The notes under the pieces: model-generated
What the model saw: the letters and a program-made list of their open reading frames with translations, nothing else
Databases searched by the model: none
What the model was told of the DNA's origin: nothing
Shown: positions 1-32,061 of the stretch, piece by piece
Position numbering within the stretch: position 1 is the stretch's first letter
Layout: every line of letters begins with the position of its first letter
Assembly: GCA_021775855.1 (NCBI GenBank)
Contig: JAJFGZ010000050.1
Location: 23,335 to 87,334, forward strand
Length of the DNA stretch: 64,000 nt
Direction: 5' to 3'
DNA from: Hyphomicrobiales bacterium
GTDB taxonomy: Bacteria; Pseudomonadota; Alphaproteobacteria; Rhizobiales; NORP267
Program-made: the position numbers and the translations under genes

Positions 1-1074
1 CGCGCCCATTTTCTCCATCAGAAACAAGGGCCCTACAGACATGGTGCCATTGGCGTTGACCGAGAAACTATCTTTGATGAGCACAGAAGACTGTGGCATC
101 TGGGTTGTTTCTTCGTATTTGCCGTAAGCGCTGGCACCCTGTGTGTTCGAGTAGTTCATCACATACCGCCCGCCATGGGTGGCGGAGACGTAGGGAACGC
201 TTGAGAACTGGGTTGCCCAGGCACGCCAGTTCCGGGTCGCGGGGACGCCGGTATTGGCATACGCGGCCTTCATTTCGCTATACAGGCAATCGTAGGCTGC
301 TGCCGCTTCCGCGTTGGTCAATTCGGCACCGCCGCCACCTGCTCCACACGGGTTGCAGGCGCCACACGCCGATGCGGCGCAAGGATTGCTCGCGGCACAA
401 GGGTTGCACGGGTTGCCGGCACCACACGCGCCACAGGCCGAGGCTCCACATGCCGAAGCACCACAGGCGGACGCTGCGCAGGGATCTTTAGCCGCACACG
501 GGTTGCAAGCGCCACAGGCGGACGCGCCGCACGCGGATGCGCCACAAGCGCCGCACGCACCACAGGCAGAAGCACCACACGGATTCTTGGCGGCACAAGG
601 GTTGCAAGCCGACGCCTGCTGCAGGCGCGGTACGACACATTCCTGGCTCACATTTGCCAAAGCTGCGCCACAGGCACCACACGCTCCGCATGCACCACAC
701 GCCGAGGCGGCGCAAGGGTTGCTTGCCCCACAGGGATTGCAGGGATTGCAGGCGCCGCAGGCGGAAGCACCACAGGCACTTGCTGCACACGGGTTGCTGC
801 CACCGCAGGCAGACGCGCCGCAGGCGGAAGCACCACAGGCTGACGCGGCGCAAGGGTTTTTAGCTGCACATGGGTTGCATGGATTACAAGCACCACACGC
901 GCCGCAAGCCGATGCACCGCACGCCCCACACGCGCCGCAGCCGTCACTTGAGGCAATCGCCATATCGGGCGCCGAAACCATCATCACGCCCGTGACGATA
1001 GTCCCAACAGACATGCCCACGATAAGCGGCATAGCTGCAGCTGTTGAAAAAAGCTGCTTCCTGGAAAATTTCAT
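1..1074 (-). CDS. Secreted cysteine-ladder repeat protein; only the N-terminal 358 codons are in the window. Sec signal, then ~208 aa of Cys/Gly/Ala/Ser/Asn/Pro repeats, then a globular C-terminal domain.
   Basis: Hand translation of the reverse strand from ATG (1074-1072) gives 358 sense codons down to position 1 with no stop. It is absent from the ORF track because the stop lies outside the window. GGAGGGAG Shine-Dalgarno sits 5 nt upstream. N-terminus MKFSRKQLFSTAAAMPLIVGMSVGTIVTGVMMVSAPDMAIA is signal-like. Residues 42-249 consist of ACG / SACGA / NPC units (45 Cys by my count). The rest reads ELTNAEAAAAYDCLYSEMK...THGGRYVMNYSN...LFLMEKMGA. Confidence 0.8.
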   Translation of the reverse strand, partial: MKFSRKQLFSTAAAMPLIVGMSVGTIVTGVMMVSAPDMAIASSDGCGACGACGASACGACGACNPCNPCAAKNPCAASACGASACGASACGGSNPCAASACGASACGACNPCNPCGASNPCAASACGACGACGACGAALANVSQECVVPRLQQASACNPCAAKNPCGASACGACGACGASACGASACGACNPCAAKDPCAASACGASACGASACGACGAGNPCNPCAASNPCAASACGACNPCGAGGGGAELTNAEAAAAYDCLYSEMKAAYANTGVPATRNWRAWATQFSSVPYVSATHGGRYVMNYSNTQGASAYGKYEETTQMPQSSVLIKDSFSVNANGTMSVGPLFLMEKMGA

Positions 1075-1287
1075 CTGGTCTCCCTCCGAAGATTTAAGTT
1101 TTTGCCAAGCCGGCCATGGCGTATTTGCTTTGTGCACTTTGGTAGCGCCGGTACTGCCCCCAATAATTCCAGTTCGCAGCGTAGCAACCTATACGGACAA
1201 TGCGATTCACTTGAGTTCACATAGATGTGAGGCACCCAACTCAGGAATTGTCAGGATAATCAGTTTACGGACCGATCATCCCTCAAG

Positions 1288-2229
1288 TTACTCAACCTGT
1301 TCGAGAACCAAGCGAAATCCAACAAGTATATGCTTGATGCCGTTGGGCCGGGAGTGGCGTGCTGACGGACGGCAAATTCCGCACCCCCTATCGTCCCAGG
1401 ACCCGCCTTTGACGATCCAGCGACCCGGATTTGCGGGCGTTGACGTCCACTCAAATACCTGTCCAGCCGGGTCGAGCATGCCAAACGGACTTTCGCCGGC
1501 GGGGAATTGTCCAACCGGCATCGTATCGAACGGACCGCCGTCATGGCTGTTCAACAGATTGCTGTCAAAGTCTTCGCCCCACGGGAATCTCCGTCCGTCG
1601 GTTCCCCGCGCCGCTTTTTCCCATTCGGCCTCGCTCGGCAGCCGCCAGACGGCTCCCGTCCGGGTGCTTAGCCATTCGGCATATGCCTCAGCGTCATCAT
1701 GGGAGACCATCACAATGGGGTGGTTTTCCCGCCCCTCTGGGGGCCTGCCGTCCAGCCAGGCGTACCGCCGCGTGCGCTCGTACGGATGGATCAATCCGTA
1801 ACCTTCCCAGGTTTCACGATCGACGTCCGGGGCGCGGTAACCTGTATCAGCGACAAACAGCGCGTAGTCAGCGTTGGTCACCAGATTCTTCATAATATTG
1901 TAGGCGGGCAGGTCTACGTTTTGCCGCTCAGGCTCGCTTTCGTACCAGCGACCGCGTCTTGTGGCGCTATGGCCATATGCTGCTTCGTCCAACAGGTAGG
2001 CCGCCTCGCGTTCGGCGCGGTCAGAACCGGTAATATAGGGGCCAGAGGGAATTAAAATTGTCTCCGGCGCGGGGATACCCGGCCCCACTTCGTTTTCGCC
2101 CGCCCGGGCGGCAACGGCGTACAAAATTGTTGCCGTGCACAAAATAAATAAAACCCGAAACACGGAAGCTGGAATCAGCTCCGCATTCCGGGTTCCTAAT
2201 CTGGACGGCGACCGAAAAGAATTGGTCAT
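1288..2229 (-). CDS. FGE/SUMF1/EgtB/PvdO-family (formylglycine-generating-enzyme-like) protein with N-terminal membrane anchor or signal
   Basis: 313-aa ORF with FGE-sulfatase-domain hallmarks: HPIVMVSHDDAEAYAEWL, WRLPSEAEWEKAARG, FPWG, GQVFEWT, KGGSW...VGFRLV. Hydrophobic N-terminal segment VFRVLFILCTATILYAVAARA. A CGIC pair follows GGSW. Confidence 0.85.
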   Translation of the reverse strand: MTNSFRSPSRLGTRNAELIPASVFRVLFILCTATILYAVAARAGENEVGPGIPAPETILIPSGPYITGSDRAEREAAYLLDEAAYGHSATRRGRWYESEPERQNVDLPAYNIMKNLVTNADYALFVADTGYRAPDVDRETWEGYGLIHPYERTRRYAWLDGRPPEGRENHPIVMVSHDDAEAYAEWLSTRTGAVWRLPSEAEWEKAARGTDGRRFPWGEDFDSNLLNSHDGGPFDTMPVGQFPAGESPFGMLDPAGQVFEWTSTPANPGRWIVKGGSWDDRGCGICRPSARHSRPNGIKHILVGFRLVLEQVE

Positions 2230-2253
2230 ATCGCCGTCCGCTATCCGCTTAAA

Positions 2254-2547
2254 CTAGTCTGCCGAGCAGGGGTTGCAGCCAGCCGCGGCGCACGGGTTTT
2301 TCGCCGCGCAAGGATTGCAGGCGCCGCATGCCGAAGCGCCACAAGCAGATGCGGCACACGGATTACAGGCTGCACAAGCACCGCATGCGCCACAGGCGCC
2401 ACAGGCACCACACGCATCGCTGCTTGCATACGCGGAGGAAGAACCCGCGACGGAAGCTGTCAGCATGACCGGGGCGGCAAGCGCCAGGCCAAGGACGACA
2501 GGTAATATAGCTGTGGAGGACAGAAGGCTTCTTTTATTGCTACTCAT
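2254..2547 (-). CDS. 97-aa secreted cysteine-ladder peptide (41-aa signal-like leader plus 56-aa core with 14 Cys)
   Basis: ORF-track protein MSSNKRSLLSSTAILPVVLGLALAAPVMLTASVAGSSSAYA|SSDACGACGACGACGACAACNPCAASACGASACGACNPCAAKNPCAAAGCNPCSAD. GAGGGAG Shine-Dalgarno upstream. Same repeat units and same post-signal SSD[AG]CGACGAC start as the 1-1074 protein. Confidence 0.75.
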   Translation of the reverse strand: MSSNKRSLLSSTAILPVVLGLALAAPVMLTASVAGSSSAYASSDACGACGACGACGACAACNPCAASACGASACGACNPCAAKNPCAAAGCNPCSAD

Positions 2548-2643
2548 GGATATTACTCCCTCAGGATTGCGTCACGCTGAATTGGTGACAGATGACATCA
2601 TTTCCGGCTCATCCGGTTATGATTAGGTGTGGGCAGGTGGGCC

Positions 2644-3126
2644 CTAATTTACGACAATCGAATAGTTCGGGGTGGGGTTGAGTGGACACGAATACACATA
2701 CTGGATTCCCGCCTCCAGAACGACTTCATAGTCAAGCGTGGTTCCCGTATTGAGTCCACCGCCTGAAACACTCGTCTTGGTCAATTTATGTATCGGATTG
2801 CCAAGCTGGTAATCAGTTTCCCGCAACCAGAACCCGAGCGGGTACGGGACATTGCGGTTTTCAACCCGGAAAATATATCGCCCTGGCGCCAGGTTCAGAA
2901 CCTTGGCCTCGGCCAATCGCGCTTCGCCCGATTCGTTGTTGATATCGACACAATCAGCGGCCGACATGGGCATATATCCCCGGTTGACGTCGTTCTCCGA
3001 TTCAAGGAACTGACACCCGACCTGGGTCAAATTAATAATAGTTGCTTCCTGCGCTCCAACCGGTGAAGCGATACCCGCTACACCGAACAAAATCGCACTG
3101 GTCAGCCATTGAAGCTTGCTGAGCAT
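2644..3126 (-). CDS. Secreted hypothetical protein (~160 aa, beta-rich, possibly cupredoxin/Ig-like sandwich)
   Basis: I prefer the internal ATG at 3126 (MLSKLQWLTSAILFGVAGIASPVGAQE is signal-like). The longer 192-aa ORF start lacks a signal peptide. No family recognised. PGRYIFRVENRN and YVYSCPLNP resemble beta-sandwich proteins, but no His/Met copper ligand set is visible. Confidence 0.6.
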   Translation of the reverse strand: MLSKLQWLTSAILFGVAGIASPVGAQEATIINLTQVGCQFLESENDVNRGYMPMSAADCVDINNESGEARLAEAKVLNLAPGRYIFRVENRNVPYPLGFWLRETDYQLGNPIHKLTKTSVSGGGLNTGTTLDYEVVLEAGIQYVYSCPLNPTPNYSIVVN

Positions 3127-3274
3127 GAATTCGTCCTTCAGCCACGCCCGCCCCCGGGTTAGCCTGATTGAAAGCTCAAGATTGCATCGACAAACCCAAA
3201 GCGCAACAAACGAGGCGTACAAGTCCTTTCAACTTTTTGTCATTGAAAGTTGGTCGGGACGTTCTGCCGGCGGT

Positions 3275-4003
3275 TCAGGACTGTTTTTTGATGGCCTTTT
3301 CAACCGCGGTCGATTGTTTTTTCACGTCTACCTTTAGAATCGACGTGAGTTCAAGTTCGCGGTCTTCATACACATCCTTGTCAGGATGACTTTCCTGCCA
3401 ATCCGCAATGACGCGGTCGCGTTCCCACAACAAGGCCTCGATTTGCGGGCGGAACAAGATAATCATCGCCGAAATCCAGTGATTGGTGGCGAGGCACGGG
3501 TAGGTGTGATCCATGAGAAACCCGTCGAGGAGGCGAATTGCGTCTTCGGCAGAATAAAAAGTTTCTCCTGTCACCCACCTGTTTGTTGAAAATAACCCGA
3601 TCGGATAGCCGGGACGGTTCATCGAGACCGCGATCAAATGGCAAATCGCGTCCTTTCCGGATGGAACCTCGGCATCGCCGCTATACGGTACGGGTTCGAT
3701 ATCATCCGGCATCCCTCCCGAGCGCATGAAAGTATGAAAATGGCCATGTTCACCCGATTCCTTGCGGTGGGCGTGGTAATAATATTGGCTCTTGGTCTCG
3801 CTATCGAAAATATCGCCCTTGGGGAAGTGATCGAATTCTACAAACTTTCCCTGATTGGCGAGACATTGACCGACCACATTTGCGTTGGCCTTGCGCAGGA
3901 CCCTGTAACATTCTTCGATGCGCAGGCTGGCTGCCCTCATGGCCTCGAGTTGTTCGGGCGGCAAATCGCTGAATTCTGTCTTGAATTTCATCGCTTGTTC
4001 CAT
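3275..4003 (-). CDS. Conserved-looking hypothetical cytoplasmic protein with a His-rich motif
   Basis: 242-aa ORF without a signal peptide. Contains YYYHAHRKESGEHGHFHTF (6 His in 19 residues). Co-oriented and upstream of the cysteine-ladder cluster. Family not recognised. Confidence 0.55.
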   Translation of the reverse strand: MEQAMKFKTEFSDLPPEQLEAMRAASLRIEECYRVLRKANANVVGQCLANQGKFVEFDHFPKGDIFDSETKSQYYYHAHRKESGEHGHFHTFMRSGGMPDDIEPVPYSGDAEVPSGKDAICHLIAVSMNRPGYPIGLFSTNRWVTGETFYSAEDAIRLLDGFLMDHTYPCLATNHWISAMIILFRPQIEALLWERDRVIADWQESHPDKDVYEDRELELTSILKVDVKKQSTAVEKAIKKQS

Positions 4004-4275
4004 TGCTCTTCAAAAAGGCATGGCCAAAGCCACGATGCTGGATCCCGGTTTGCCCGCAATGGGATGAAGTTACAAAAGCACAATTATTCGCCGGGATGAA
4101 GTTCAAAAACACGTGATCGGCGGCGCCGGCGGGACAGAATAGCGGTCTGGTAAATTCTGTATGGACATTGTTGCCAAATTGTCACGGTTCGTTATTAGAA
4201 TCGTGGTAGAGGCAGTGAATCCATTGCCAAAATGGCTGGATTCGGGTTTTGTTGCACAATATCTGAACAATTTCA

Positions 4276-4869
4276 TTGCCCAAACTGGAGCAAATTATGC
4301 GCACGAATCTTATCTTTGCAGGTCTGCTGGCATTCGCAATGTCGGTTTCCGTATCAGGCCAGGCCAATGCTCTGGGTGAATCCGGCGATGTTACGGTTGC
4401 TGTCGGAGGCGGCGGTTTCTTTAGCGGCGGTTCTACCCGCAGCGTCGTTCGCTACGAAACACAATATTCGCCTGGCACAATCGTCATCAGCACCGAGGAT
4501 CGCAAGCTGTATCTGGTGCAGGATAACGGTCGCGCAATCTCCTACAGCGTCGGCGTTGGACGTCCCGGATTCCAGTGGGGCGGCACCATGCGGATTTCTC
4601 GCAAAGCCGAGTGGCCGGGCTGGACGCCGCCACCTGCCATGCGCCGGCGCCAACCTTATCTGCCGGCCTTTGTTCCTGGCGGGATCAACAATCCCCTTGG
4701 AGCGCGCGCCATGTATCTCGGCTCAAGCCTATACAGAATTCACGGAACGACTGAAGCCGATACGATCGGATCAGCGGTTTCGTCAGGATGCATCCGCATG
4801 CTGAATGAAGATGTGGAAGAATTGTACGAGATGGTCAATGTAGGCACGCGCGTGGTGGTTCAACGCTAG
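4276..4869 (+). CDS. L,D-transpeptidase (YkuD/ErfK family), secreted
   Basis: Signal-like N-terminus. YkuD-domain motifs include the catalytic HGT...SSGCIRM (RIHGTTEADTIGSAVSSGCIRMLNEDV). Confidence 0.85.
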   Translation: MPKLEQIMRTNLIFAGLLAFAMSVSVSGQANALGESGDVTVAVGGGGFFSGGSTRSVVRYETQYSPGTIVISTEDRKLYLVQDNGRAISYSVGVGRPGFQWGGTMRISRKAEWPGWTPPPAMRRRQPYLPAFVPGGINNPLGARAMYLGSSLYRIHGTTEADTIGSAVSSGCIRMLNEDVEELYEMVNVGTRVVVQR

Positions 4870-4891
4870 GCCAACTTTCCAGCATTACAAG

Positions 4892-4923
4892 AAGCCCGCT
4901 GCCTCCTCGCGGCGGGCTTTTTA
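4892..4923 (+). terminator. Rho-independent terminator after the L,D-transpeptidase gene
   Basis: Stem AAGCCCGC (4892-4899) pairs with GCGGGCTT (4912-4919), followed by a T-run (CTTTTT). It lies between convergent genes. Confidence 0.7.
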
Positions 4924-4939
4924 CTATCTGGACTGCGGT

Positions 4940-5365
4940 TTAATCTGGAATGACGGCCGTTGCCTCGATCTCGATGCGGGCCCGATCTTCCATCAGGGAG
5001 ACCACTTCGACCACCGCCATGACCGGATAATGCTGGCCGAAAGCTTCGCGATACGCGGCACCAACGCCAGCAAGCGATGCCAGGTATTCCTGTTTGTCAA
5101 CCACGTACCAGGTCAGCCGGGTGATGTGTTCAGGCTTGCCGCCGGCCGCATTTAAAATTGCAACGATGTTCCGAAATGCCATGGCGGCCTGTTCGGCAAA
5201 ATCGTCGCTCTCAAATTCTTCCATGGAATTCCAGCCTATCTGGCCAGCGACGAATACCGTGCGTCCACGGGCAATGATGCCCTGGGAATACCCTTTTGGG
5301 CGGGGCCAGCCTTCCGGCAAAACTGATTGATGGACCATTTTCTCTCCGATTTCTTTCAGATTCAC
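4940..5365 (-). CDS. RidA/YjgF/TdcF-family reactive-intermediate deaminase
   Basis: 141 aa. Contains GYSQGIIARGRTVFVAGQIG and a C-terminal ARIEIEATA, typical of the YjgF/RidA fold. Confidence 0.8.
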   Translation of the reverse strand: MNLKEIGEKMVHQSVLPEGWPRPKGYSQGIIARGRTVFVAGQIGWNSMEEFESDDFAEQAAMAFRNIVAILNAAGGKPEHITRLTWYVVDKQEYLASLAGVGAAYREAFGQHYPVMAVVEVVSLMEDRARIEIEATAVIPD

Positions 5366-6960
5366 CCGTTCAGGCGCAATTTGAAACGTTGCAATTTGCC
5401 GGTCTGGGTTTTTGGCAAACTGTCCACGAATTCGATTTCGCGGGGATATTTGTATGGTGCGATTGCTTCTTTGGCGTGGTCCTGAAGGGATTTCGCCAAT
5501 GTATCTGATGGTTTGATGCCGGGGCCTGGCACAACAAACGCCTTAACGATTGAACCGCGCATATTATCGGGTTTACCGACAACCGCGCATTCACCGACCG
5601 CCGAATGCTCAAGCAGAGCGTTTTCAACCTCCGGACCGGCAATATTGTAGCCAGCAGAAATGATCATGTCGTCGGCGCGGGCCTGGTACCAAAAGAATCC
5701 ATCCTCATCCATTGAGAAGGTATCGCCGGTCAGGTTCCAACCATCTTGCACATAGTTCGTTTGCCGGTCGTCGGCGAGATAGCGGCAACCGGTTGGCCCC
5801 TTGACCGCGAGCCGGCCAACGCTGCCAATCGGTAGATCGTTACCATCCTCGTCGACAATCTTGCCCTGAAAACCTGGTACCATTGTTCCCGTTGAACCCG
5901 GGACCAGGCCGGCCTCAGACGACGATATCATCGTGTGCAGCATTTCGGTCGAGCCGATCCCGTCAAACAGCCGCAATCCACTCGCATTCAGAAACCCATC
6001 GTACGTCGCCTTCGGTAAATGTTCACCGGCCGAAATACCCCGCCTCAGGCTCGAAATATCACGGCCCTCCAAAAGCGATGTCATCGCGCGATACGCCGTA
6101 GGAGCGGTGAATAGAATGGTCGCCCGGTAGTCTTCGATCACATCCAGCAGGTCGGCCGGTGTTGTAGCCTCAGCCAATACAGTAGCGGCGCCTGCATGGA
6201 GTGGGAACAGGGCAAGTCCACCTAGACCGAACGTAAAAGCCAACGGCGGCGACCCGCAAAATATATCGTCCGGGGTCGGGTCGATAACATGGTTGCAAAA
6301 ACCGTCGCATACCGCCAGCAAATCCCGATGGAAATGCATCGTCCCCTTGGGTTTGCCGGTCGTGCCGGACGTAAATGCAATCAGACAAATATCGTCGGCC
6401 CGGCATTCATACGGCCTGAAAACGTCTGACTTGGTTCCCATCAGAGCTTCAAGTTCATTATCAGATGATGCATCGAAATATCTGATTTTTTTCAGAAATT
6501 CCGAATTACGCGTTGTATTTTTTAGTTCATGTTGGAGACGAATATCGCAAAGCGCGTGGCTGATTTCTGCTTTATCGATAATCACGTCCAATTCGCCGGC
6601 GCGCAATAATGGCATTGTGCCAACTGCGATACCGCCGGCGCGGATCACAGCCAGGTACGCGGCGACCATCATCGGGTTGTTGCCGGAGCGCAGCAAGACC
6701 CGGTTGCCGGGTATCAAACCCATATCCTCGACCAGGACATGCGCGATCTGGTTCACAGCCGCTGCCAGTCCGGCGTAGCTCCAGTTGCCGAAAGGGGAAT
6801 AAATCGCGGTCGCGTCACCGCGGCCGTTCGCCAGCCAATGATCAAGAAACCGTGCCGTACAGTTCATCATATCCGGGTACTGGTATGCCGGGTGGCTGAA
6901 ATCCAGATCCGGCCAATGCGCGGCGGGCGGTAGATTATCCCGTGCAAACGTGTCGATCAT
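5362..6960 (-). CDS. AMP-dependent acyl/aryl-CoA ligase (benzoate/aminobenzoate-CoA-ligase-like)
   Basis: 532 aa. AMP-binding signature [11 protein letters not shown], plus GDT...[16 protein letters not shown] and a C-terminal KTQTGKLQR. Overlaps neighbouring genes by 4 nt on each side. Confidence 0.85.
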
Positions 6961-8150
6961 TTGCCGCCGCCCTGGCGCTGGGCCTGCCGGGCGTCTTCGG
7001 CCTGACGCGCGATCACGATTTTTTGTACCTCGGTCGCTCCCTCGTAAATCCGCAGCGCACGAATATCGCGGTACAATTCCTCGACCTTGTTGCCTGAGCG
7101 GACCCCCTCCCCGCCATGAAGCTGGACCGCCATATCGATGATCTTCTGGGCTTCCTCGGTCGCGAACATTTTGGCCATCGAGGCTTCCCGGCTGATCCGC
7201 GGGGCGCCCTGGTCCTTGGTCCAGGCGGCCCGATAAATCAGTAGGGCGGCGGCATCGATCGCGGTTGCCATATCGGCGATCATGGCTTGCGGCATTTGCA
7301 GGTCCGCGAGGCGGTCCTCACCGATCATGCGGCTGGCGGTGTGATCGAGCGCCTCGTCGTGGGCGCGGCGCGCCAATCCCAGTGCGGCAGCGCCAACGGT
7401 GGAGCGGAACACATCGAGGGTCGCCATGGCGATTTTGAACCCGTCGCCCGGTTTACCAAGCATGTCGGCAGCAGGCACCCGACAATCCGTCAGCCGGAGC
7501 CGCGCCAACGGATGCGGCGCGATCACATCGATCCGCTCGACAATTTCAAACCCCAGCGTGTCGGCGGGGACAACAAAGGCTGACAGGCCTTTGGCTCCAG
7601 GGGCTTCACCTGTACGGGCGAACACCACGTAGTGACCGGCGATACCTCCATTGGAAATCCAGGTTTTCTCACCGTTCAGGATATAGTCTTTTCCGTCAGG
7701 AACAGCGGACAGTGAAATGGCGGCGGCGTCCGATCCGGCGACAGGTTCGGTGAGGGCGAAGGCAGCCAGCGATTTACCTGACGCCACGGGCGGTAGAAAC
7801 CGGGCTTTGGTCTCGTCCGACCCAAACAGGGAAATCGGGCCCGTGCCGAGCCCCTGCATGGCGAAGGCGAAATCTGCCAAACCGTCGTGGCGAGCCAGGG
7901 TTTCGCGGATGATACAAAGCGAACGGACGTCAAGAATATCGGTGTTGCCCCCGTACGGTGCGACAACGGCGTGGGCGCATATTCCTGCCTGCCCCATAGC
8001 GGCTGCCAGACGGATGCAGCGCTCGTCCAGATCATCGGTCGAGGACATGATGGCGTGGACGTTGCCCGACGCCCAGTCATCAACCGTGCGGGCCAGATCG
8101 CGGTGCGTTTTCTCAAAGAAAGGCCAGTCCAGGAACGTCCGGTCGGGCAT
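6957..8150 (-). CDS. Acyl-CoA dehydrogenase
   Basis: 397 aa. ACAD-like motifs: [19 protein letters not shown], and C-terminal [16 protein letters not shown]. Confidence 0.85.
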
Positions 8151-8152
8151 CT

Positions 8153-8965
8153 CTAATTGCCCTCAAATACCGGTTCGCGCTTTTCAGCGAAGGCTTCGAA
8201 AGCGCGGCGGAAATCCTTGGTCTGCATGCAGATCGCCTGGGCACGGGCCTCTTCTTCGATGGCTTCGTCCACGCCCATATCCCATTCGGTATGGAGCATC
8301 CGTTTGGTTATCCCGTGCGCAAAAGTCGGGCCGTCCGCGATCCGGTTGGCCATTTTGGTGGCCTCCTCCAAAAGCGCACCTGGTTCGCACAAGCGGTTAT
8401 AAAAACCCCAGCGCTCGGCCTCGTCGCCGGGCATCGCGCGGCCGGTATAGAGCAATTCTGAAGTGCGGCCATGACCGATGATCCGGGGCAGCATGTTGCA
8501 CGCCCCCATGTCGCACCCGGCCAGGCCGACCTTTACAAACAGGAAGGCAACTTTTGACCTGGCGGTGCCGTAGCGCAGGTCAGACCCCATCGCGAGGCAG
8601 GCCCCGGCACCGACGCATATGCCATCGATTGCCGCAATTATCGGCTGCGGGCAGGCACGCATGGCGCGCACCACCGCGCCGGTCATGCGGGTAAATTTGA
8701 GCAGGTCGGGCATGCTCATTTTGGTCAATGGCTCGATGATTTCGAAGACGTCGCCACCAGCACAGAAATTGTCCCCCGCCCCTGTCAGAACGATCGACTT
8801 GATATCTTCATCGTGGCAGAGCGCTTCGAATGTCTGGCGCAACTCGGCGTAGGATTCAAACGTCAGCGGGTTCTTCCTGTCGGGGCGATTCAGGGTCAAG
8901 GTAGCCACCTTGCCATCGACCTCCCAGAGGAAATGCCGGGCCTTGTAATCGGTCAAGTTTGTCAT
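8153..8965 (-). CDS. Enoyl-CoA hydratase/isomerase (crotonase) family
   Basis: 270 aa. Contains [19 protein letters not shown] and [21 protein letters not shown] (crotonase oxyanion-hole pattern). Confidence 0.85.
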
Positions 8966-9492
8966 GAGGCTTGCTCCTTGCCGACAATGCGCCGGTCGGC
9001 AGCACGTTCGGCGGAAATTTTCAATTTGGCCAGCATGTCCTGCAACTCACTAGCACTCGCTGTATCGACATCTGCAAAAATCTCACCGATCCACTGGCTG
9101 TGGATCGCGGCCATTCTCTCAAAAAAATCTCGCCCCTGATCGGTCAGACAAATGCGCTGCACCCGCCGGTCGCGGGGATCCGCCCGGCGCTCGACATGCC
9201 CGTCCTTGGCGAGGCGGTCGGTCAGGCCAGTGATGTTGCCGCCAGTTACCATCAGGCGCTGTCCGAGGTCCGTCATGGTCAGTTCGTTTTCGCCAGCCCG
9301 ATAAAGCTGCGCCAGAAAATCGAAGCGCGCGAGTGAAATACCAAAATTCTCGCGGAGTCGCTGTTGGAGTTCATATTCGACAAAATTGGTGCAGGACAAA
9401 AGACGTAGCCAAAGTCGCAAATCATCCCGATTATTTTCAGTCACCTGAACACCTCCTCGCCCGCTGCTGCTCGTGCCCCATGGTGGCACCAT
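8962..9492 (-). CDS. MarR-family transcriptional regulator (start uncertain)
   Basis: Winged-HTH MarR pattern: [14 protein letters not shown]...[41 protein letters not shown]. First gene of the CoA operon. Confidence 0.8.
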
Positions 9493-9653
9493 CGCATTCG
9501 ATGCCCGAATCCGGTGTAAATAGCCGCACCTTCAGGATTGCAAAAATGCTAGAAATTATTAGTACGAAAGTCAATTATTTATATATCAAACTTGTCCCAT
9601 TGCCTGAACCGGATCGTTGGTTAGAATAAAATCTGGGTCGCCGTCGGTGGCCC

Positions 9654-10097
9654 GTGAATTCTGGGATTGGTATCGTGACCAGAAACCGGAAAGTCGATCG
9701 CGCCCTGGCTCTGAAGGGAGCCTACGCTGTAAGTCTGATGCTGGCTGGAATCGCCCCTGCCGGTGCCGAGGGGAACCCGGAAAGGGGCGAGAAAATCGCC
9801 AGTGAGGGTTGCGCACGGTGTCACGCAATCTCCGAGGCACACCGTTTTTCCGGCATCGGCTCAACGCCATCCTTCATGATGATGGTAAATTTCATGGGTG
9901 ATTGGGAAGAACGTTTTCAGACTTTCTATGCACGACGCCCGCACTTTGTTCATATCCGTGTTGAGGGAATAGCCCCTCTGACGACATTACCGTCCAATGC
10001 GGCCATTATCGAGTTGACGCTGGACGATGTCGACGATCTGGTCGCGTATGCGCGCTCTTTGCAGGACCCAGATGATACCGGGGAACCCGCTGACTAG
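9654..10097 (+). CDS. Small periplasmic c-type cytochrome-like protein
   Basis: 147 aa with a signal-like N-terminus and a single CxxCH heme motif (GCARCH). Confidence 0.6.
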   Translation: MNSGIGIVTRNRKVDRALALKGAYAVSLMLAGIAPAGAEGNPERGEKIASEGCARCHAISEAHRFSGIGSTPSFMMMVNFMGDWEERFQTFYARRPHFVHIRVEGIAPLTTLPSNAAIIELTLDDVDDLVAYARSLQDPDDTGEPAD

Positions 10098-10465
10098 GAC
10101 GGATCGCGGCTTAGGCCCTTTTCACCGATTTCCTGCTTGTAGCGCTCCCACAGAAAATCGTGGTCACGGGCAATCTGTGAAAGATAATCCCAGGAATATA
10201 TGCCGGTATCATGCAGATCCGTAAATGTCAGACGGATTGCATAATTCCCCACCGGTTCAACCTTCATGATTTCGATATTGCGTTTGCCCGGGATCGTCTG
10301 GCGCTGGGACGGACTATGACCCTGCACCTCCGCGCTAGGGCTGACGATGCGTAGATATTCAGCAGTATAGTCGTGGGTCTGGTCATCCGAAAAGGCAACG
10401 GTCAGGCTTTTCTTGTCCTTGGCCAGCCGAATTTCGGTGGGCCAGGGTTTAACGTCAGTGGTCAT
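10094..10465 (-). CDS. DUF971-like protein (gamma-butyrobetaine-hydroxylase N-terminal-like domain)
   Basis: 123 aa. Pattern YTAEYLRIVSPSAEVQGH...VGNYAIRLTFTDLHDTGIYSWDYL matches my memory of DUF971. Confidence 0.6.
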   Translation of the reverse strand: MTTDVKPWPTEIRLAKDKKSLTVAFSDDQTHDYTAEYLRIVSPSAEVQGHSPSQRQTIPGKRNIEIMKVEPVGNYAIRLTFTDLHDTGIYSWDYLSQIARDHDFLWERYKQEIGEKGLSRDPS

Positions 10466-10620
10466 GATGGTGATCCAGGGTTGAAAGCACGAAATTGCGT
10501 AGTTCGAACTGATTTTACAATACCATTAAGGCGAATGGCGGTTTATATTTCCCCGGTGGAAAGATCAACCCAACAATCATCGCCTCCGCCACGGCCAACA
10601 GGTTCCAAAGTGCGTATTTC

Positions 10621-11340
10621 ATGAACAGCATTCTCGAAGGATTTAGCGAAGCTTTCGGTCTGTTGATCTCGCTTGATCCTGATCTTATTGAAATCGTTCT
10701 TCTTTCCCTTCGGGTATCGCTCACCGCGGTCTTCTTTAGCGCCCTGATCGGGTTGCCGCTCGGCGCCGTGCTGGCCGTTGCAAAATTTCCTGGTCGGCGG
10801 CTCATGATCGTTCTGATTAACGCCTTTATGGGACTGCCACCGGTTGTCGTTGGCCTGGTTGTTTATCTGCTGCTCTCGCGGTCAGGTCCGTTCGGGGTGC
10901 TTGGTCTATTGTTCACCCCGACCGCCATGATTATTGCTCAAACGATCCTGATCACGCCGATCGTGGCGTCGCTAACCAGACAGTCCATTTCCGATCTCTG
11001 GCTGGCTTACCGCGACCTCCTGCATTCGTTCGATGCCAGCCCGATGCAGATCATGCGCACCCTTCTCTGGGAAGGACGGGTATCGCTCATGACCGGAATC
11101 CTCGCCGGATTTGGCCGGGCAATCGCAGAAGTCGGGGCCGTGATGATTGTCGGCGGCAATATCGACCGGGCCACCCGGGTGCTCACCACGGCCATCGCGC
11201 TTGAGACCAGCAAGGGCGATCTTGGATTGGCGCTTGGCCTCGGGATCGTGCTCGTTACCATCGCGATTGTGGTCAACATTCTCACCCTGTCGGTCGGCCA
11301 GGTGGTGGGCGGCCAATCTCTCGAAGGCCGGGCGCCTTGA
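10621..11340 (+). CDS. tupB: Tungstate/oxyanion ABC transporter permease (TupB-like)
   Basis: 239-aa polytopic membrane protein with an ABC permease EAA-like loop. Operon with a TupA-type binding protein. Confidence 0.7.
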   Translation: MNSILEGFSEAFGLLISLDPDLIEIVLLSLRVSLTAVFFSALIGLPLGAVLAVAKFPGRRLMIVLINAFMGLPPVVVGLVVYLLLSRSGPFGVLGLLFTPTAMIIAQTILITPIVASLTRQSISDLWLAYRDLLHSFDASPMQIMRTLLWEGRVSLMTGILAGFGRAIAEVGAVMIVGGNIDRATRVLTTAIALETSKGDLGLALGLGIVLVTIAIVVNILTLSVGQVVGGQSLEGRAP

Positions 11341-12023
11341 GCAAAATCCTGCCCCTCACCCTCAATAATGTCTTCTACCGGGTCGGCGAAGATCGCCTGA
11401 TCCAGGATGTCAGCCTGCGGTTTGAAGCCGGCCCGATTACGCTGGTGATTGGCCCAAACGGGGCCGGCAAGAGCCTGTTGCTGCGCCTCTGCCACGGATT
11501 GATCGCGCCAGAATCCGGATCGATCGCCTGGGGTGGGTCGGACGCCGTGCAAGCCGCCAAACACCAGGCCTTGGTGTTTCAAAAGCCAATCCTGCTGCGC
11601 CGGTCGGTATACGCAAACATCGCCTACCCCCTTCAAATTGGGGGCGTCTTGCGCGATACCGAGATCGTCGACCGGGTGCAGGAAGCGCTGAAACTCGCCG
11701 GGCTTGAACATATTGCCGATAGGCCCGCAAAAGTGCTCTCGGGTGGTGAACAGCAGAAGCTGGCGCTCGCGCGCGCCCGTGCACAGCGCCCCGAGGTTCT
11801 GTTTCTCGACGAACCGACCGCCAACCTGGATCCGCGCAGTCTGAAAGATGTTGAAGCCTTGATCCGGGCATTGCACAAAGCCGGCACCAAAATCATCATG
11901 ACATCCCATGACATGGCCCAGGTAAAACGATTGGCGGATGAAATCGTCTTTATATATGATGGCCGGATTGTTGAAGCGGGGCCCGCCGAAAAGGTGCTCC
12001 GCAGCCGACACATTAAATATTAG
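11337..12023 (+). CDS. tupC: ABC transporter ATP-binding protein (TupC-like)
   Basis: Walker A GPNGAGKS, signature LSGGEQQ, Walker B LFLDEPT. TTG start overlaps the tupB stop. Confidence 0.75.
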   Translation: MSKILPLTLNNVFYRVGEDRLIQDVSLRFEAGPITLVIGPNGAGKSLLLRLCHGLIAPESGSIAWGGSDAVQAAKHQALVFQKPILLRRSVYANIAYPLQIGGVLRDTEIVDRVQEALKLAGLEHIADRPAKVLSGGEQQKLALARARAQRPEVLFLDEPTANLDPRSLKDVEALIRALHKAGTKIIMTSHDMAQVKRLADEIVFIYDGRIVEAGPAEKVLRSRHIKY

Positions 12024-22486: not shown

Positions 22487-22654
22487 CGCAATTCCTCTTA
22501 AATCTGGAAAAAATCAGTATAGCCGAACGGCTGATATGGGCCAGCTTTTTAGACTGGTTCCAAACCGGCGAGACGGATAGACTGCCCTATTGAGGGAGTT
22601 GACGGCGGTAGCATTAAGCCGCCGATTTATGGTTGGATTCGCGGGAGCGTTAGT

Positions 22655-32049: not shown

Positions 32050-32061
32050 GATAAACCCTCC

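What the first reader, a model, noticed from the sequence alone, without database searches (positions are those of the whole stretch)
1..1074. Large ORF missing from the ORF track: cysteine ladder fused to a globular C-terminal domain
The supplied track shows only antisense shadow ORFs here (e.g. + 314-1801, 'PHAPQAEAPHAEAPQ...'). My hand translation of the minus strand from ATG 1074 is open for all 358 codons to the window edge and is preceded by a strong GGAGGGAG Shine-Dalgarno. The repeat region (nt 328-951) consists of two half-arrays (aa 42-138 and 156-249) separated by a non-repeat linker, LANVSQECVVPRLQQAS, which suggests an internal duplication. The C-terminal part (AAYDCLYSEMK...SATHGGRYVMNYSNTQGASAYGKYEE...SVLIKDSF...GPLFLMEKMGA) is ordinary globular sequence. 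From memory, the pattern H-G-G-x-Y-V-x-N-Y...[IV]-x-K-[DE]...L-x-M-E-K resembles proteins annotated as cytochrome P460 family. The heme CxxCH of that family would lie beyond the window, so I cannot confirm this. A redox or heme domain tethered to a thiol array would be unusual.
Basis: partly seen in the sequence, partly recalled or inferred. Interest (0 to 1): 0.65.

Follow-up and report, generated by a model that had tools for sequence, protein, structure and literature searches.

The report
Cysteine-ladder cytochrome P460, exported protein
This is a real gene for an exported haem enzyme of the cytochrome P460 type. It carries a long disordered run of about 45 cysteines in front. Hundreds of mostly marine bacterial species have the same design, it sits with a conserved set of uncharacterised helper genes, and I found no description of it in the literature I could search.

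Summary
The minus strand is open from ATG 1074 to the window edge (358 codons), with GGAGGGAG 5 nt upstream.

**P460 domain.**
- The last 113 residues hit only PF16694 proteins (best 96% identity, E 6e-50).
- That relative's locus is syntenic and continues the same ORF to FCADCH and a stop.
- An AlphaFold model matches only P460/c'-beta structures in the PDB.
- The family-invariant Lys and Glu align with the cross-link Lys70 and distal Glu96 of Nitrosomonas P460.

**Ladder.**
- It is translated: against the closest relative there are 95 synonymous and 25 non-synonymous codon changes.
- It is disordered.
- It is interrupted by a conserved CxVPRL motif. That motif's Cys co-varies with a Cys on the first helix of the P460 domain, which suggests a docking disulfide.

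**Wider context.**
- 65 of 67 related loci have a ladder.
- The window holds a second, stand-alone mini-ladder gene (2254-2547, minus strand).
- Three neighbours (DUF6969, an FGE-like protein and a 192-aa protein) follow the ladder into other phyla, where it is fused to a different cytochrome.

**Function.** It is unproven. My best guess is a periplasmic thiolate array that binds metal or buffers redox, attached to a hydroxylamine/NO-oxidising haem.

The parts
1080..1087 (-). Shine-Dalgarno GGAGGGAG, 5 nt upstream of the start codon
   Evidence: Read directly from the sequence.
952..1074 (-). Start codon and N-terminal export signal, aa 1-41: MKFSRKQLFSTAAAMPLIVGMSVGTIVTGVMMVSAPDMAIA, with a likely AxA cleavage site before S42.
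   Evidence: The N-terminus is basic and is followed by a long hydrophobic stretch. The (K/R)xxLLSTT..P...G.G pattern is conserved at the N-termini of relatives. No dedicated signal-peptide predictor was available.
661..951 (-). Cysteine ladder, array 1 (aa 42-138, 23 Cys; units CGA, CGASA, CNP, CAAKNP)
   Evidence: The equivalent region in the AlphaFold model of relative P0080 is disordered (pLDDT 37-48).
610..660 (-). Conserved linker LANVSQECVVPRLQQAS (aa 139-155). Cys146 is at 637-639. I predict this is the docking element, disulfide-bonded to Cys263.
   Evidence: The motif C-x-[VI]-P-x-[LVIM] is present in 136 of 146 complete family members and co-varies with the helix Cys. The Cys is invariant in alignment A2. 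pLDDT peaks at 83 in residue block 91-100, which holds most of the linker motif (its Cys90 falls in block 81-90, pLDDT 60), between arrays scoring below 50.
316..609 (-). Cysteine ladder, array 2, plus a Gly-rich junction (aa 156-253; 21 Cys)
1..315 (-). N-terminal 105 residues of a cytochrome P460 domain (aa 254-358), cut by the window edge. It contains helix Cys263 (286-288), the THGGR motif (166-180), the predicted cross-link Lys334 (73-75) and the predicted distal Glu354 (13-15). The CxxCH motif lies beyond position 1.
2254..2547 (-). Second, stand-alone mini-ladder gene (97 aa). It has the same type of signal peptide (MSSNKRSLLSSTAILPVVLGL...AYA|SS), then about 55 residues holding 17 Cys, ending ...GCNPCSAD and a stop. 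GAGGGAG lies upstream.
   Evidence: Orthologues lie at the same position in L001-L003, and similar genes occur in 21 of 81 loci, always on the strand of the P460 gene.
1288..2229 (-). FGE-sulfatase-fold protein (313 aa) with an N-terminal signal and a conserved C-terminal GCGxC motif. It lies directly upstream of the ladder-P460 gene.
   Evidence: PF03781 at 1.4e-41. The best solved relative is ToxD (7SPQ), and it is not an equivalog of any named NCBIfam family. It is found within 6 kb of ladder-P460 in 32 of 81 loci. C283 and C286 are conserved in 94-97% of orthologues.
2644..3222 (-). 'p192': an exported protein of unknown family. The true start is probably the internal ATG at 3126, giving MLSKLQWLTSAILFGVAGIASPVGA...
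   Evidence: No Pfam, NCBIfam or PDB sequence match. Homologues of 46-61% identity lie next to ladder genes in other lineages.
3275..4003 (-). DUF6969 protein (242 aa) with no signal peptide and an invariant His/Asp/Glu cluster
   Evidence: PF22308 at 1.1e-78. Invariant columns are listed. It co-localises with ladder genes in 36 of 81 loci. In an independent metagenome sample, 31 of 39 loci of at least 6 kb have a ladder ORF within 5 kb.

Best explanation
**Shown**
- Window 1-1074 (minus strand) is the first 358 codons of a protein of about 435-450 aa that is exported to the periplasm.
- Its order is: export signal, Cys ladder, conserved CxVPRL linker, Cys ladder, cytochrome P460 domain.
- The P460 domain keeps the Lys that forms the haem-lysine cross-link and the distal carboxylate that marks the hydroxylamine-oxidising members. 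In the closest relative it also keeps the CxxCH haem site.
- The ladder is translated, under purifying selection and predicted to be disordered.
- The ladder is an independent module. It occurs alone in a second gene in this window. In other phyla it flanks a different c-type cytochrome.
- It travels with DUF6969, an FGE-fold protein and the p192 family.

**Inferred**
- The linker folds back onto the P460 domain, and its Cys146 pairs with Cys263 on the first helix. This would close array 2 into a loop of about 115 residues next to the haem domain.
- The ladder works as a metallothionein-like array of periplasmic thiolates. It would bind soft metal ions (Cu(I) is the first candidate) and/or act as a sacrificial and re-reducible thiol buffer.
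- The haem domain oxidises hydroxylamine or NO to N2O. The whole protein would therefore be an envelope detoxification device rather than a respiratory enzyme.
For: **Gene and frame.** The ORF is open with a Shine-Dalgarno sequence. The same ORF is continuous in L001, L002 and L003 although their ladder lengths differ. In the ladder there are 95 synonymous against 25 non-synonymous changes, and differences fall 19/19/105 by codon position.

**P460 identity.** The AlphaFold model has pLDDT 89. The Foldseek top 13 PDB hits are all P460 or c'-beta, probability 1.0, TM 0.5-0.65. hhalign places the invariant Lys on Lys70, the invariant Glu on Glu96, and CxxCH on CxxCH. The meaning of those residues comes from PMC11928373 Table 2.

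**Export.** The N-termini are hydrophobic and conserved.

**Ladder is the rule.** 65 of 67 loci not cut by a contig end have one.

**Docking disulfide.** After hand-correcting three regex errors, the counts are: both Cys present 136, linker Cys only 0, helix Cys only 2, neither 8 (raw table and Fisher p = 1.7e-9). Both were lost together, independently, in L003 (sister of L002) and in L037. Both Cys are invariant in alignment A2. pLDDT is 83 in the block just after the linker Cys (60 in the block that holds it) against 37-48 in the arrays.

**Metallothionein-like character.** The window ladder is 21% Cys with no aromatic residues. Across the family it is A 25, C 20, P 16, N 14, K 7, G 5.5%. 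Cys number ranges from 10 to 73 with no parity constraint (64 even, 81 odd, p = 0.18). Complete structural disulfide pairing is therefore not selected for.

**Context pointing to thiol or metal chemistry.**
- One ladder-cytochrome gene sits inside a copRS-copAB-cupredoxin cluster, next to DUF6969, thioredoxin and DsbD_TM genes.
- Other ladder loci carry TlpA-like thioredoxins, DsbD_TM, and ECF sigma/anti-sigma pairs (zf-HC2 or NrsF).
- A class I cytochrome c, a plausible electron acceptor, lies next to the P460 gene in 12 loci.
Against: - No metal binding, redox state or enzyme activity has been measured.
- Copper genes were seen next to a ladder gene in only 2 loci (L082, L106) among about 90 examined, so the copper link is thin.
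- The periplasm is oxidising, and known periplasmic Cu(I) binders mostly use Met and His (my own knowledge).
- Simple metal binding does not explain why 66% of ladder Cys are preceded by exactly Asn-Pro. It also does not explain why a cytoplasmic DUF6969 and an FGE-fold protein track the ladder.
- The hhalign match that maps the Lys and Glu has only 45% probability. It is supported by the fold match, not proven.
- Signal-peptide cleavage, lipidation and the disulfide are all predictions.
- The window itself lacks the CxxCH motif.
Confidence: 0.4

Rival explanations
1. The ladder is a substrate for enzymatic modification, in the manner of a RiPP. Cytoplasmic DUF6969 would act before export, and/or the exported FGE-fold protein would act afterwards. 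They would convert ladder Cys residues, recognised through the Asn-Pro-Cys motif, into another group. The mature product would be a modified metallophore or cofactor-bearing arm. The stand-alone mini-ladder gene would be the simplest precursor.
For: - DUF6969 tracks ladder genes whatever the passenger domain. In an independent metagenome sample, 31 of 39 loci of at least 6 kb have a ladder ORF within 5 kb. It also does so in Zobellella and Magnetospira.
- FGE-like and p192 homologues recur next to ladder genes in Methylomirabilales and Gammaproteobacteria.
- 2817 of 4237 ladder Cys are preceded by NP, a specificity that is unnecessary for plain metal binding.
- DUF6969 has an invariant cluster that looks like a metal site: H59, D64, D67, H77, H79, E85, H88, H90, H122.
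- FGE-like orthologues keep a CxxC motif.
- There is a precedent. Bufferins are Cys-containing copper-binding RiPPs (PMC11626156, abstract seen). That their precursors carry Sec signal peptides is my own knowledge.
Against: - The canonical FGE motif C-x-P-x-R is absent. The ladder has C-N-P-C-[A/N/G], and the linker CVVPR has Pro at +3.
- The closest solved relative of the FGE-like protein is ToxD, not FGE. The FGE active-site loop was not alignable.
- About half of the fully flanked ladder-P460 loci have neither FGE-like nor DUF6969 within 4 kb (22 of 47).
- No MNIO, radical-SAM or other known RiPP enzyme was seen among the five neighbouring proteins scanned.
- No modification has been observed.
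Confidence: 0.2
2. The ladder thiols are tethered co-substrates or carrier arms for the haem domain. The oxidised haem intermediate would be attacked by a ladder thiolate. For P460 this is the electrophilic {FeNO}6 species. For the SoxA/TsdA-like cytochrome in other lineages it is a thiosulfate adduct. The products would be S-nitrosothiol or thiosulfonate adducts and disulfides, which TlpA/CcdA-type reductases would later resolve. This is analogous to SoxAX loading SoxY.
For: - The ladder is fused to two unrelated c-type haem domains, P460 and PF21342 SoxA-TsdA_cyt-c.
- The docking linker would hold array 2 as a loop beside the haem domain.
- In P460 the {FeNO}6 intermediate is consumed by nucleophilic attack (PMC11928373).
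- Thiol reductase genes recur in ladder loci (TlpA-like, thioredoxin, DsbD_TM).
- A YeeE/YedE sulphur transporter recurs in 16 DUF6969 loci.
Against: - Stand-alone mini-ladders, and the Methylomirabilales protein P0166, have no haem domain.
- No TlpA or CcdA gene was found among the near neighbours in this window that I scanned.
- The argument is purely chemical. Nothing was measured.
Confidence: 0.15
3. The ladder is a passive spacer or tether with no chemistry of its own. It would either hold the haem domain away from the membrane or cross-link it by disulfides into a periplasmic or surface scaffold.
For: - The ladder is disordered and its length is highly variable, 10-73 Cys.
- Some relatives have a lipobox-like I/L-A-A-C at the end of the signal sequence, for example L002, L003, L009, L013 and L073.
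Against: - A spacer does not need 20% Cys or the conserved NPC unit.
- Stand-alone mini-ladders have nothing to tether.
- In gammaproteobacterial proteins the ladder flanks the cytochrome on both sides.
- Dedicated accessory genes track it.
Confidence: 0.1
4. The region is not this gene. The + strand ORF 314-1801 (495 aa, PHAPQAEAPHAEAPQ...) would be the real one, or the ladder would be untranslated repeat DNA in front of a short P460 gene that starts at an internal Met, as many public gene calls have it.
For: - Public gene callers often start the P460 gene at an internal Met or split the locus. In L001 they aa plus 150 aa. The hits are 110-191 aa.
- The + strand ORF is long.
Against: - Differences from the closest relative are concentrated at the third codon position of the minus frame (19/19/105).
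- Indels preserve the frame in four relatives.
- The short calls I inspected start inside the P460 domain or inside the ladder, so they lack the export signal a c-type cytochrome needs.
- 79 full-length ladder-P460 proteins with a signal peptide are already in the databases, for example P0142, 328 aa, named 'cytochrome P460 family protein' by NCBI.
Confidence: 0.01

Closest known systems
Cytochrome P460 (CytL) of Nitrosomonas europaea and Methylococcus capsulatus (PDB 2JE2/2JE3, 6HIU; Pfam PF16694)
   Same: - The predicted fold is the same beta-rich fold (Foldseek probability 1.0, TM 0.5-0.65).
- The CxxCH motif is C-terminal.
- The invariant Lys aligns with cross-link Lys70, and the invariant Glu aligns with distal Glu96 (PMC11928373 Table 2). 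This is the pair found in the NH2OH-oxidising members.
   Different: - Identity to the solved proteins is only 16-25%, and a profile search of PDB sequences finds none of them.
- It carries an N-terminal Cys ladder of 100-400 residues with a docking linker. The 2025 review of the family has no occurrence of 'cysteine-rich', 'extension' or 'fusion'.
- The hosts are mostly marine Alphaproteobacteria (Hyphomicrobiales, Sneathiella, Kiloniellales, Rhodospirillales), and none of the record titles names a known nitrifier or methanotroph genus.
Metallothioneins (for example Neurospora Cu-MT, cyanobacterial SmtA, mycobacterial MymT; my own knowledge)
   Same: - Cys content is about 20%.
- The other residues are small (Gly, Ala, Ser, Asn).
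- There are no aromatic residues.
- CxxC motifs are clustered.
- The apo form is predicted to be disordered.
   Different: - It is exported rather than cytoplasmic.
- It is several times longer.
- It is dominated by an Asn-Pro-Cys unit, and the window ladder has no CxC or CC motifs (spacings 3, 5, 6 and 11 only).
- It is fused to a haem domain.
- It has no sequence-family match.
- Metal binding has not been tested.
Bufferins (Cys-containing RiPP copper chelators made by MNIO enzymes; PMC11626156, PMC12452194)
   Same: - They are Cys-bearing ribosomal products (Sec signal peptides on the precursors: my own knowledge).
- Dedicated accessory genes accompany them.
- They have a role in metal stress (abstracts). 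ECF sigma/anti-sigma genes lie in some ladder loci.
   Different: - No MNIO (DUF692) or DUF2063 partner was seen among the near neighbours scanned. The accessory genes here are DUF6969, an FGE-fold protein and p192.
- The ladder has tens of Cys and is usually fused to a cytochrome.
Formylglycine-generating enzyme acting on CxPxR in sulfatases
   Same: - The neighbouring gene has the FGE-sulfatase fold (PF03781, 1.4e-41).
- That protein is exported and keeps two Cys near its C-terminus.
- The ladder is full of C-x-P motifs.
   Different: - The motif is C-N-P-C-[A/N/G] with no Arg at +4.
- The enzyme's Cys pair is CxxC, not CxxxxC (the canonical FGE spacing is my own knowledge).
- It is closest to ToxD among solved proteins and scores far below the cut-off of every NCBIfam equivalog.
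SoxAX cytochrome with the SoxY carrier arm (GGCGG) in thiosulfate oxidation (my own knowledge)
   Same: A c-type haem domain sits beside flexible arms rich in Gly, Ala and Cys. In Gammaproteobacteria the ladder flanks a PF21342 SoxA-TsdA_cyt-c domain.
   Different: - SoxY has a single carrier Cys on a folded protein.
- Here there are tens of Cys on a disordered chain, and in this window the partner domain is P460, not SoxA.

Membership tests
Cytochrome P460 / c'-beta superfamily (PF16694) | Match to the Pfam model above its gathering score | tested here: met
   The 96%-identical complete domain P0001 scores 32.9 bits against a cut-off of 27 (E 9.9e-8). All 46 homologues carry PF16694. The window fragment alone, which lacks the C-terminal third, gives no hit.
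Cytochrome P460 / c'-beta superfamily (PF16694) | Beta-sheet-rich P460 fold | tested here: met
   AlphaFold model with pLDDT 89 and pTM 0.84. The top 13 Foldseek PDB hits are all cyt P460 or cyt c'-beta, probability 1.0.
Cytochrome P460 / c'-beta superfamily (PF16694) | Single C-terminal CxxCH haem-binding motif | not testable with these tools
   The motif lies beyond window position 1. It is present as FCADCH in the syntenic relative L001 (96% identity in the P460 part) and is invariant in the family.
Cytochrome P460 proper (as opposed to cytochrome c'-beta) | Lys at the position that cross-links to the haem (NeP460 Lys70, McP460 Lys78; c'-beta has Met or Phe) | tested here: met
   Lys334 of the window protein (SVLIKDSF) is invariant in 45 of 45 sequences. 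hhalign places it on Lys70 of the verified 2JE2 sequence (probability 45%, E 2e-4). The reference residues come from PMC11928373 Table 2. Whether the chemical cross-link actually forms cannot be tested here.
NH2OH-oxidising cytochromes P460 | Distal carboxylate (NeP460 Glu96, McP460 Asp102; absent in the inactive NsP460, which has Ala131) | tested here: met
   Glu354 (LMEKM) is invariant and aligns with Glu96 (PMC11928373 Table 2). Activity itself was not tested.
Periplasmic c-type cytochrome | N-terminal export signal | tested here: inconclusive
   The N-terminus is basic, followed by a hydrophobic stretch of about 28 residues and A-I-A before Ser42. The pattern is conserved in relatives. No SignalP or LipoP-type predictor was available. 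The stretch is long enough to be a signal anchor instead.
Metallothionein | High Cys content, small residues, no aromatic residues, clustered Cys motifs | tested here: met
   45 Cys in 212 residues and no F, W, Y or H in the window ladder. Across the family, C is 20% and aromatic residues are at most 0.2% each.
Metallothionein | Homology to a known MT family, or demonstrated metal-thiolate clusters | tested here: not met
   No Pfam or NCBIfam match for the ladder-containing protein or for the mini-ladder. Metal binding cannot be tested here.
FGE substrate (sulfatase-type Cys to formylglycine) | C-[TSAC]-P-[SA]-R recognition motif | tested here: not met
   The residue after CxxC is A, N or G in 2171 of 2252 cases and R in 4. 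The linker CVVPR has Pro at +3, not +2.
Bufferin-type RiPP | MNIO (DUF692) enzyme with a DUF2063-type partner next to the precursor | tested here: not met
   The neighbours scanned are FGE-sulfatase, an unknown protein, DUF6969, YkuD and L-PSP. The called genes in L001 and in L082-L089 include no DUF692.

The most novel reading that the evidence does not exclude
The Asn-Pro-Cys ladder is the core of a periplasmic system that has not been recognised before and is shared by Alpha- and Gammaproteobacteria and Methylomirabilota. The system comprises ladder-haem proteins, stand-alone mini-ladders, DUF6969, an FGE-fold protein, p192, and often YeeE/YedE and thiol reductases. In this reading the ladder is not a passive metal sponge. 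Either its Cys residues are enzymatically modified into a new cofactor or metallophore, or they serve as tethered carrier thiols that capture the reactive intermediates made by the attached haem domain. For P460 that would mean {FeNO}6 giving S-nitrosothiol and then N2O. That would be a new way for heterotrophic marine bacteria to process hydroxylamine or NO.
Probability: 0.25. Interest if true: 0.85.

Novelty: new variant of a known kind. Interest (0 to 1): 0.66.

Why it matters
- **P460 enzymology.** Cytochrome P460 is studied as a source of N2O from hydroxylamine, almost entirely in nitrifiers and methanotrophs. This finding shows a large, mostly marine alphaproteobacterial clade, with relatives matched in 538 GTDB species genomes. 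Its members keep the catalytic Lys and Glu but carry a 10-73-Cys disordered arm that docks back on the enzyme. Work done on tail-less proteins may therefore miss part of how these enzymes behave in the cell.
- **Annotation.** Many public gene calls for this family are cut at internal Met codons and lack the export signal, so surveys based on them under-describe the family.
- **Handles on unknown families.** The ladder occurs alone and on a second kind of cytochrome. It drags DUF6969, an FGE-fold protein and an unnamed exported protein with it across phyla. This gives those three families their first concrete functional association, and it yields experiments that can be done in cultured Sneathiella, Kiloniella, Pelagibius or Magnetospira.

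Tried and rejected
- **Pfam and NCBIfam on the window fragment and on its last 110 aa.** No hits. The fragment lacks the C-terminal third, and the complete homologue does hit.
- **PDB sequence searches with the family profile.** At E up to 1 and up to 10, only spurious hits came back. I obtained the mapping of Lys and Glu another way: I recalled the N. europaea P460 sequence, verified it as 100% identical to 2JE2, and then ran hhalign.
- **Tandem Repeats Finder.** It gives only weak short repeats, so I did not pursue 'internal duplication' at the DNA level.
- **Promoter and terminator scan of 1-4300.** No better than shuffled sequence.
- **Literature.** There were no papers for 'cytochrome P460' with 'cysteine-rich', P460 with formylglycine, or DUF6969. 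One string search was badly designed, because CGACGAC matches primers. I repeated it with peptide strings only and got two irrelevant hits.
- **Copper hypothesis.** Cop genes flank the Zobellella ladder gene. A search of 80 further DUF6969 loci found a multicopper oxidase in only one, so I downgraded copper from 'context-supported' to 'first candidate'.
- **DUF6969 and p192 against PDB sequences, and p192 against Pfam at E up to 1.** Nothing usable came back. One p192 homologue gives a sub-threshold Cupredoxin_1 hint at E 0.11.
- **ORF clustering around DUF6969.** It produced one merged, unreliable cluster (the DUF302-like representative), which I discarded.
- **His avoidance after CxxC (to prevent stray haem attachment).** Only 1 of 2252 CxxC motifs is followed by His. 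His is 0.1% of the ladder anyway, so the test is uninformative.
- **Unused resources.** Both structure-prediction jobs went on the P460 domain and a full-length relative, so the folds of DUF6969, p192 and the FGE-like protein were not examined. I did not use the representative-library search or the third homology search.
Full report
**1. The observation**

The minus strand of window 1-1074 translates without a stop for 358 codons from the ATG at 1072-1074. GGAGGGAG lies 5 nt upstream. The product begins with a basic, hydrophobic N-terminus, MKFSRKQLFSTAAAMPLIVGMSVGTIVTGVMMVSAPDMAIA.

Two low-complexity Cys arrays follow: aa 42-138 with 23 Cys, and aa 156-249 with 21 Cys. They are separated by LANVSQECVVPRLQQAS. 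Ordinary globular sequence then runs to the window edge.

The ORF was 'missing from the track' for a trivial reason: the ORF lister omits ORFs that run off the source. It reports only shadow ORFs here, such as + 314-1801.

The ladder is a protein-level pattern rather than a DNA repeat. Tandem Repeats Finder finds only weak 9-30 bp repeats. The 45 ladder Cys use TGT 25 times and TGC 20 times, and all four Ala codons are used.

**2. The C-terminal domain is a cytochrome P460**

- The last 113 residues retrieve 46 proteins, all carrying PF16694. The best is 96% identical at E 6e-50.
- That protein, P0001, passes Pfam's gathering score (32.9 against 27 bits).
- The truncated window fragment on its own gives no hit in Pfam or NCBIfam.
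- An AlphaFold model built from the family alignment has pLDDT 89. Its 13 best Foldseek matches in the PDB are all cytochromes P460 or c'-beta, with probability 1.0 and TM 0.5-0.65.

The family is too far from the solved proteins for HMMER to connect them. I therefore took the N. europaea P460 sequence, verified it as identical to 2JE2, and aligned it to the family profile with hhalign. The match has E 2e-4 and 45% probability. It gives three correspondences:

- The invariant Lys of V-L-[IA]-K-D-S-F (window Lys334) falls on Lys70.
- The invariant Glu of L-M-E-K-M (window Glu354) falls on Glu96.
- CxxCH falls on CxxCH.

According to Table 2 of the 2025 review (PMC11928373), Lys70 is the haem cross-link residue that defines P460 as distinct from c'-beta. 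Glu96 (Asp102 in M. capsulatus) is the distal carboxylate found only in the members that oxidise hydroxylamine. On sequence grounds this is therefore a P460 proper of the catalytically competent type.

**3. The full gene, and proof of the frame**

P0001 comes from a 20 kb contig, L001, that is syntenic with the window. Its gene order is AMP-binding, L-PSP, DUF6969, a 165-aa gene, FGE-sulfatase, the P460 gene, and a 162-aa gene.

The public annotation splits the locus there into a 76-aa gene and a 150-aa gene. The DNA nevertheless carries the same continuous ORF: MKFSRKQLL..., ladder, QQCFVPRLQQAS, ladder, P460 domain, FCADCH, EEYRVSN, stop.

Aligning the window ORF with L001, L002 and L003 gives ladders of different length, and every indel is in frame. 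Against L001 the ladder codons show 95 synonymous and 25 non-synonymous differences, and changes fall 19/19/105 by codon position. The minus frame is under purifying selection through the ladder. The + strand ORF is a shadow.

**4. Anatomy of the ladder across the family**

A scan of GTDB species genomes found 538 loci encoding relatives. The 80 best are mostly marine Alphaproteobacteria: Hyphomicrobiales, Sneathiella, Kiloniellales, Rhodospirillales and Pelagibius.

I extended the reading frame upstream in each locus. Of the 67 loci not cut by a contig end, 65 have a Cys ladder. The exceptions are L049 and L077, which have an ordinary signal peptide.

Statistics from 147 ladders (20,734 residues):

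| Property | Value |
|---|---|
| Composition | A 25, C 20, P 16, N 14, K 7, G 5.5% |
| Cys preceded by Asn-Pro | 66% |
| Cys per ladder | 10-73, median 25 |
| Parity of Cys count | 64 even, 81 odd, p = 0.18 |

The lack of a parity preference argues against a fixed, fully paired disulfide structure.

The N-termini are conserved, with the pattern (K/R)xxLLSTT..P...G.G. A few end in lipobox-like motifs.

Many database entries for the family start at an internal Met or inside the ladder, and so lack an export signal. Others are full length. One is Magnetospira P0142, 328 aa, which NCBI names 'cytochrome P460 family protein'.

**5. The linker is a conserved docking element**

The 'non-repeat linker' recurs across the family as C-x-[VI]-P-[RSG]-[LVIM]. 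Its Cys co-varies with a Cys on the first helix of the P460 domain (A-Y-D-C-L; window Cys263). Among 146 complete sequences, after hand-correcting three regex errors, the counts are:

| Linker Cys | Helix Cys | Sequences |
|---|---|---|
| present | present | 136 |
| present | absent | 0 |
| absent | present | 2 |
| absent | absent | 8 |

The raw table and Fisher p = 1.7e-9 are. Relatedness inflates that p value. However, the pair was lost together at least twice independently: in L003, the sister of L002 within the window's own clade, and in a Sneathiella MAG (L037) whose congeners keep both.

Both Cys are invariant in a 76-sequence full-length alignment. An AlphaFold model of a full-length relative gives pLDDT 37-48 for both arrays, 83 for the ten-residue block just after the linker Cys (which holds most of the motif), 60 for the block holding the Cys itself, and 93-98 for the domain.

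I infer that the linker packs on the P460 domain and that Cys146 and Cys263 form a disulfide. This would turn array 2 into a closed loop beside the enzyme.

**6. The ladder is a module with its own gene set**

A search with the ladder alone found many full-length ladder-P460 proteins. It also found the same Asn-Pro-Cys repeats in three other settings:

- on both sides of a monohaem cytochrome c domain (PF21342/PF03150) in Gammaproteobacteria;
- around an unassigned domain in Methylomirabilales;
- with a LysM insertion.

It encodes 97 aa: the same kind of signal peptide, then about 55 residues with 17 Cys, then a stop. It lies between p192 and the FGE-like gene. Such mini-ladders occur in 21 of the 81 loci, always on the strand of the P460 gene.

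The neighbours of the window gene are conserved:

- An FGE-fold protein (51-80% identity) lies within 6 kb in 32 of 81 loci, and DUF6969 in 36 of 81. Their orientation varies. Among 47 fully flanked loci the counts are 21 and 24.
- These neighbours follow the ladder rather than the P460 domain. DUF6969 sits beside the ladder-cytochrome c gene of Zobellella and beside ladder-P460 in Magnetospira. p192 homologues lie beside ladder-cytochrome c genes in three other lineages. An FGE-like homologue lies in the Methylomirabilales locus.
- I then started from DUF6969 and sampled metagenome contigs independently. A ladder ORF lay within 5 kb in 31 of 39 loci of at least 6 kb. Across all 80 loci the ladder partner was P460 in 14 and the cytochrome c domain in 23, with the FGE-like gene in 24 and p192 in 23. 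In the rest of this 64 kb window, no other ORF has three or more NPC units.

What can be said about each accessory protein:

- **DUF6969.** It has no signal peptide and has an invariant His/Asp/Glu cluster.
- **FGE-like protein.** It is exported and keeps a C-terminal GCGxC motif. It is closest to ToxD among solved structures and is not an equivalog of any named family.
- **Other recurrent neighbours in ladder loci.** These are TlpA-like thioredoxins, DsbD_TM, ECF sigma/anti-sigma pairs, multihaem cytochromes, YeeE/YedE and MsrB.
- **Copper genes.** They appear in only two loci.
- **Electron acceptor.** A class I cytochrome c lies next to the P460 gene in 12 loci and is a plausible acceptor.

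**7. How it most likely works**

The following are shown:

- the gene, its frame and its modular order;
- membership of the P460 family, with the Lys, the Glu and (in relatives) the CxxCH motif retained;
- the predicted disorder of the ladder;
- the conserved linker and the Cys-Cys covariation;
- the existence of a ladder-centred gene set.

The rest is inferred. My preferred reading (confidence about 0.4) has three parts:

- The protein is exported.
- The haem domain oxidises hydroxylamine or NO, as in the characterised P460s (PMC11928373).
- The ladder is a metallothionein-like array of periplasmic thiolates that binds soft metals and/or buffers oxidants, kept near the enzyme by the docking disulfide.

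This reading fits the composition, the free variation in Cys number, and the thiol-reductase and stress-sigma contexts. It does not explain the strict Asn-Pro-Cys unit or the dedicated accessory proteins.

Those two features favour two rivals. In the first, the ladder is enzymatically modified, like a RiPP (0.2). In the second, the ladder thiols are carrier or co-substrate arms that attack the haem-bound electrophile, by analogy with SoxAX and SoxY (0.15). A passive tether (0.1) is hard to reconcile with the stand-alone mini-ladders. A non-coding or + strand reading is excluded for practical purposes.

**8. Comparison with what is known, and novelty**

The domain is a member of the P460 family. 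The membership table gives the result for each defining feature. The CxxCH motif cannot be tested for the window itself.

The ladder resembles metallothioneins in composition but belongs to no known family. It lacks the FGE recognition motif. Its loci lack the MNIO enzymes of bufferins.

I found no paper that mentions the repeat strings, a Cys-rich P460 or DUF6969. The 2025 family review has no occurrence of 'cysteine-rich', 'extension' or 'fusion'. The library I could search is incomplete, so this is absence of evidence. Full-length proteins of this kind are already deposited and named 'cytochrome P460 family protein'.

I therefore class the finding as a new variant of a known kind. There is a real chance (about 0.25) that the ladder system as a whole is something new.

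Noticed in passing
It encodes 97 aa: a signal peptide (MSSNKRSLLSSTAILPVVLGL...AYA|SS), then about 55 residues with 17 Cys. It has its own GAGGGAG ribosome-binding site. It is conserved at the same position in L001-L003, and similar genes occur in 21 of 81 related loci.
   Followed up: yes
window 1288-2229 (minus strand): An exported FGE-sulfatase-fold protein directly upstream of the ladder-P460 gene. Its orthologues keep a C-terminal VKGGSWDD.GCG.CR motif, that is CxxC rather than the CxxxxC of true FGE. The best solved relative is ToxD (7SPQ).
   Followed up: partly
window 3275-4003 (minus strand): A DUF6969 protein with no signal peptide and an invariant His/Asp/Glu cluster (H59, D64, D67, H77, H79, E85, H88, H90, H122). 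It is the most faithful companion of ladder genes across phyla. Neither literature nor a solved relative was found.
   Followed up: partly
window 2644-3222 (minus strand): 'p192' is an exported protein of about 160 aa with no family assignment. The listed TTG start is probably too far upstream, and an internal ATG at 3126 gives a normal signal peptide. Homologues of 46-61% identity lie beside ladder genes in Gammaproteobacteria and Methylomirabilales. The only hint of a fold is a sub-threshold Cupredoxin_1 match in one homologue (E 0.11).
   Followed up: partly
L001 5346-5576 and 6001-6453; the proteins returned: Public gene calls for this family are often wrong. The locus is split or started at an internal Met, which gives 'P460' proteins of about 150-190 aa with no export signal.
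   Followed up: yes
protein P0062; L056 and P0069: Ladder repeats can also be inserted inside the P460 domain. P0062 has an NPCAA run in the loop between KDSF and GPLF. L056 and P0069 carry a LysM domain within the ladder and a second ladder between the first helix and the rest of the domain.
   Followed up: no
L082 (Zobellella aerophila) 2169-11908: A ladder-cytochrome c gene lies between a copRS/copA/copB/cupredoxin cluster and DUF6969, GST, thioredoxin and DsbD_TM genes. This is the only clear copper context found. A multicopper oxidase appeared in one further locus, L106.
   Followed up: partly
L090-L169 (DUF6969-centred metagenome loci): A YeeE/YedE sulphur-transport gene (PF04143, 5e-67) lies about 0.8 kb downstream of DUF6969 on the same strand in 16 loci. 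MsrB/SelR occurs in 6. L088 has SelB next to the ladder gene. This may point to sulphur or selenium chemistry.
   Followed up: no
L001 6472-6960 (just beyond the window edge in this genome): A conserved exported 162-aa protein lies downstream of the P460 gene in 14-15 related loci. It has a DGDTL motif reminiscent of staphylococcal-nuclease-like proteins (my own reading). Pfam gives no match.
   Followed up: no
window 22553-24751 (+) and 31459-32061 (-): Two other open frames were flagged by my CxxC-density scan (10 and 6 CxxC motifs, no NPC units). I did not examine them. They are probably unrelated to the ladder.
   Followed up: no
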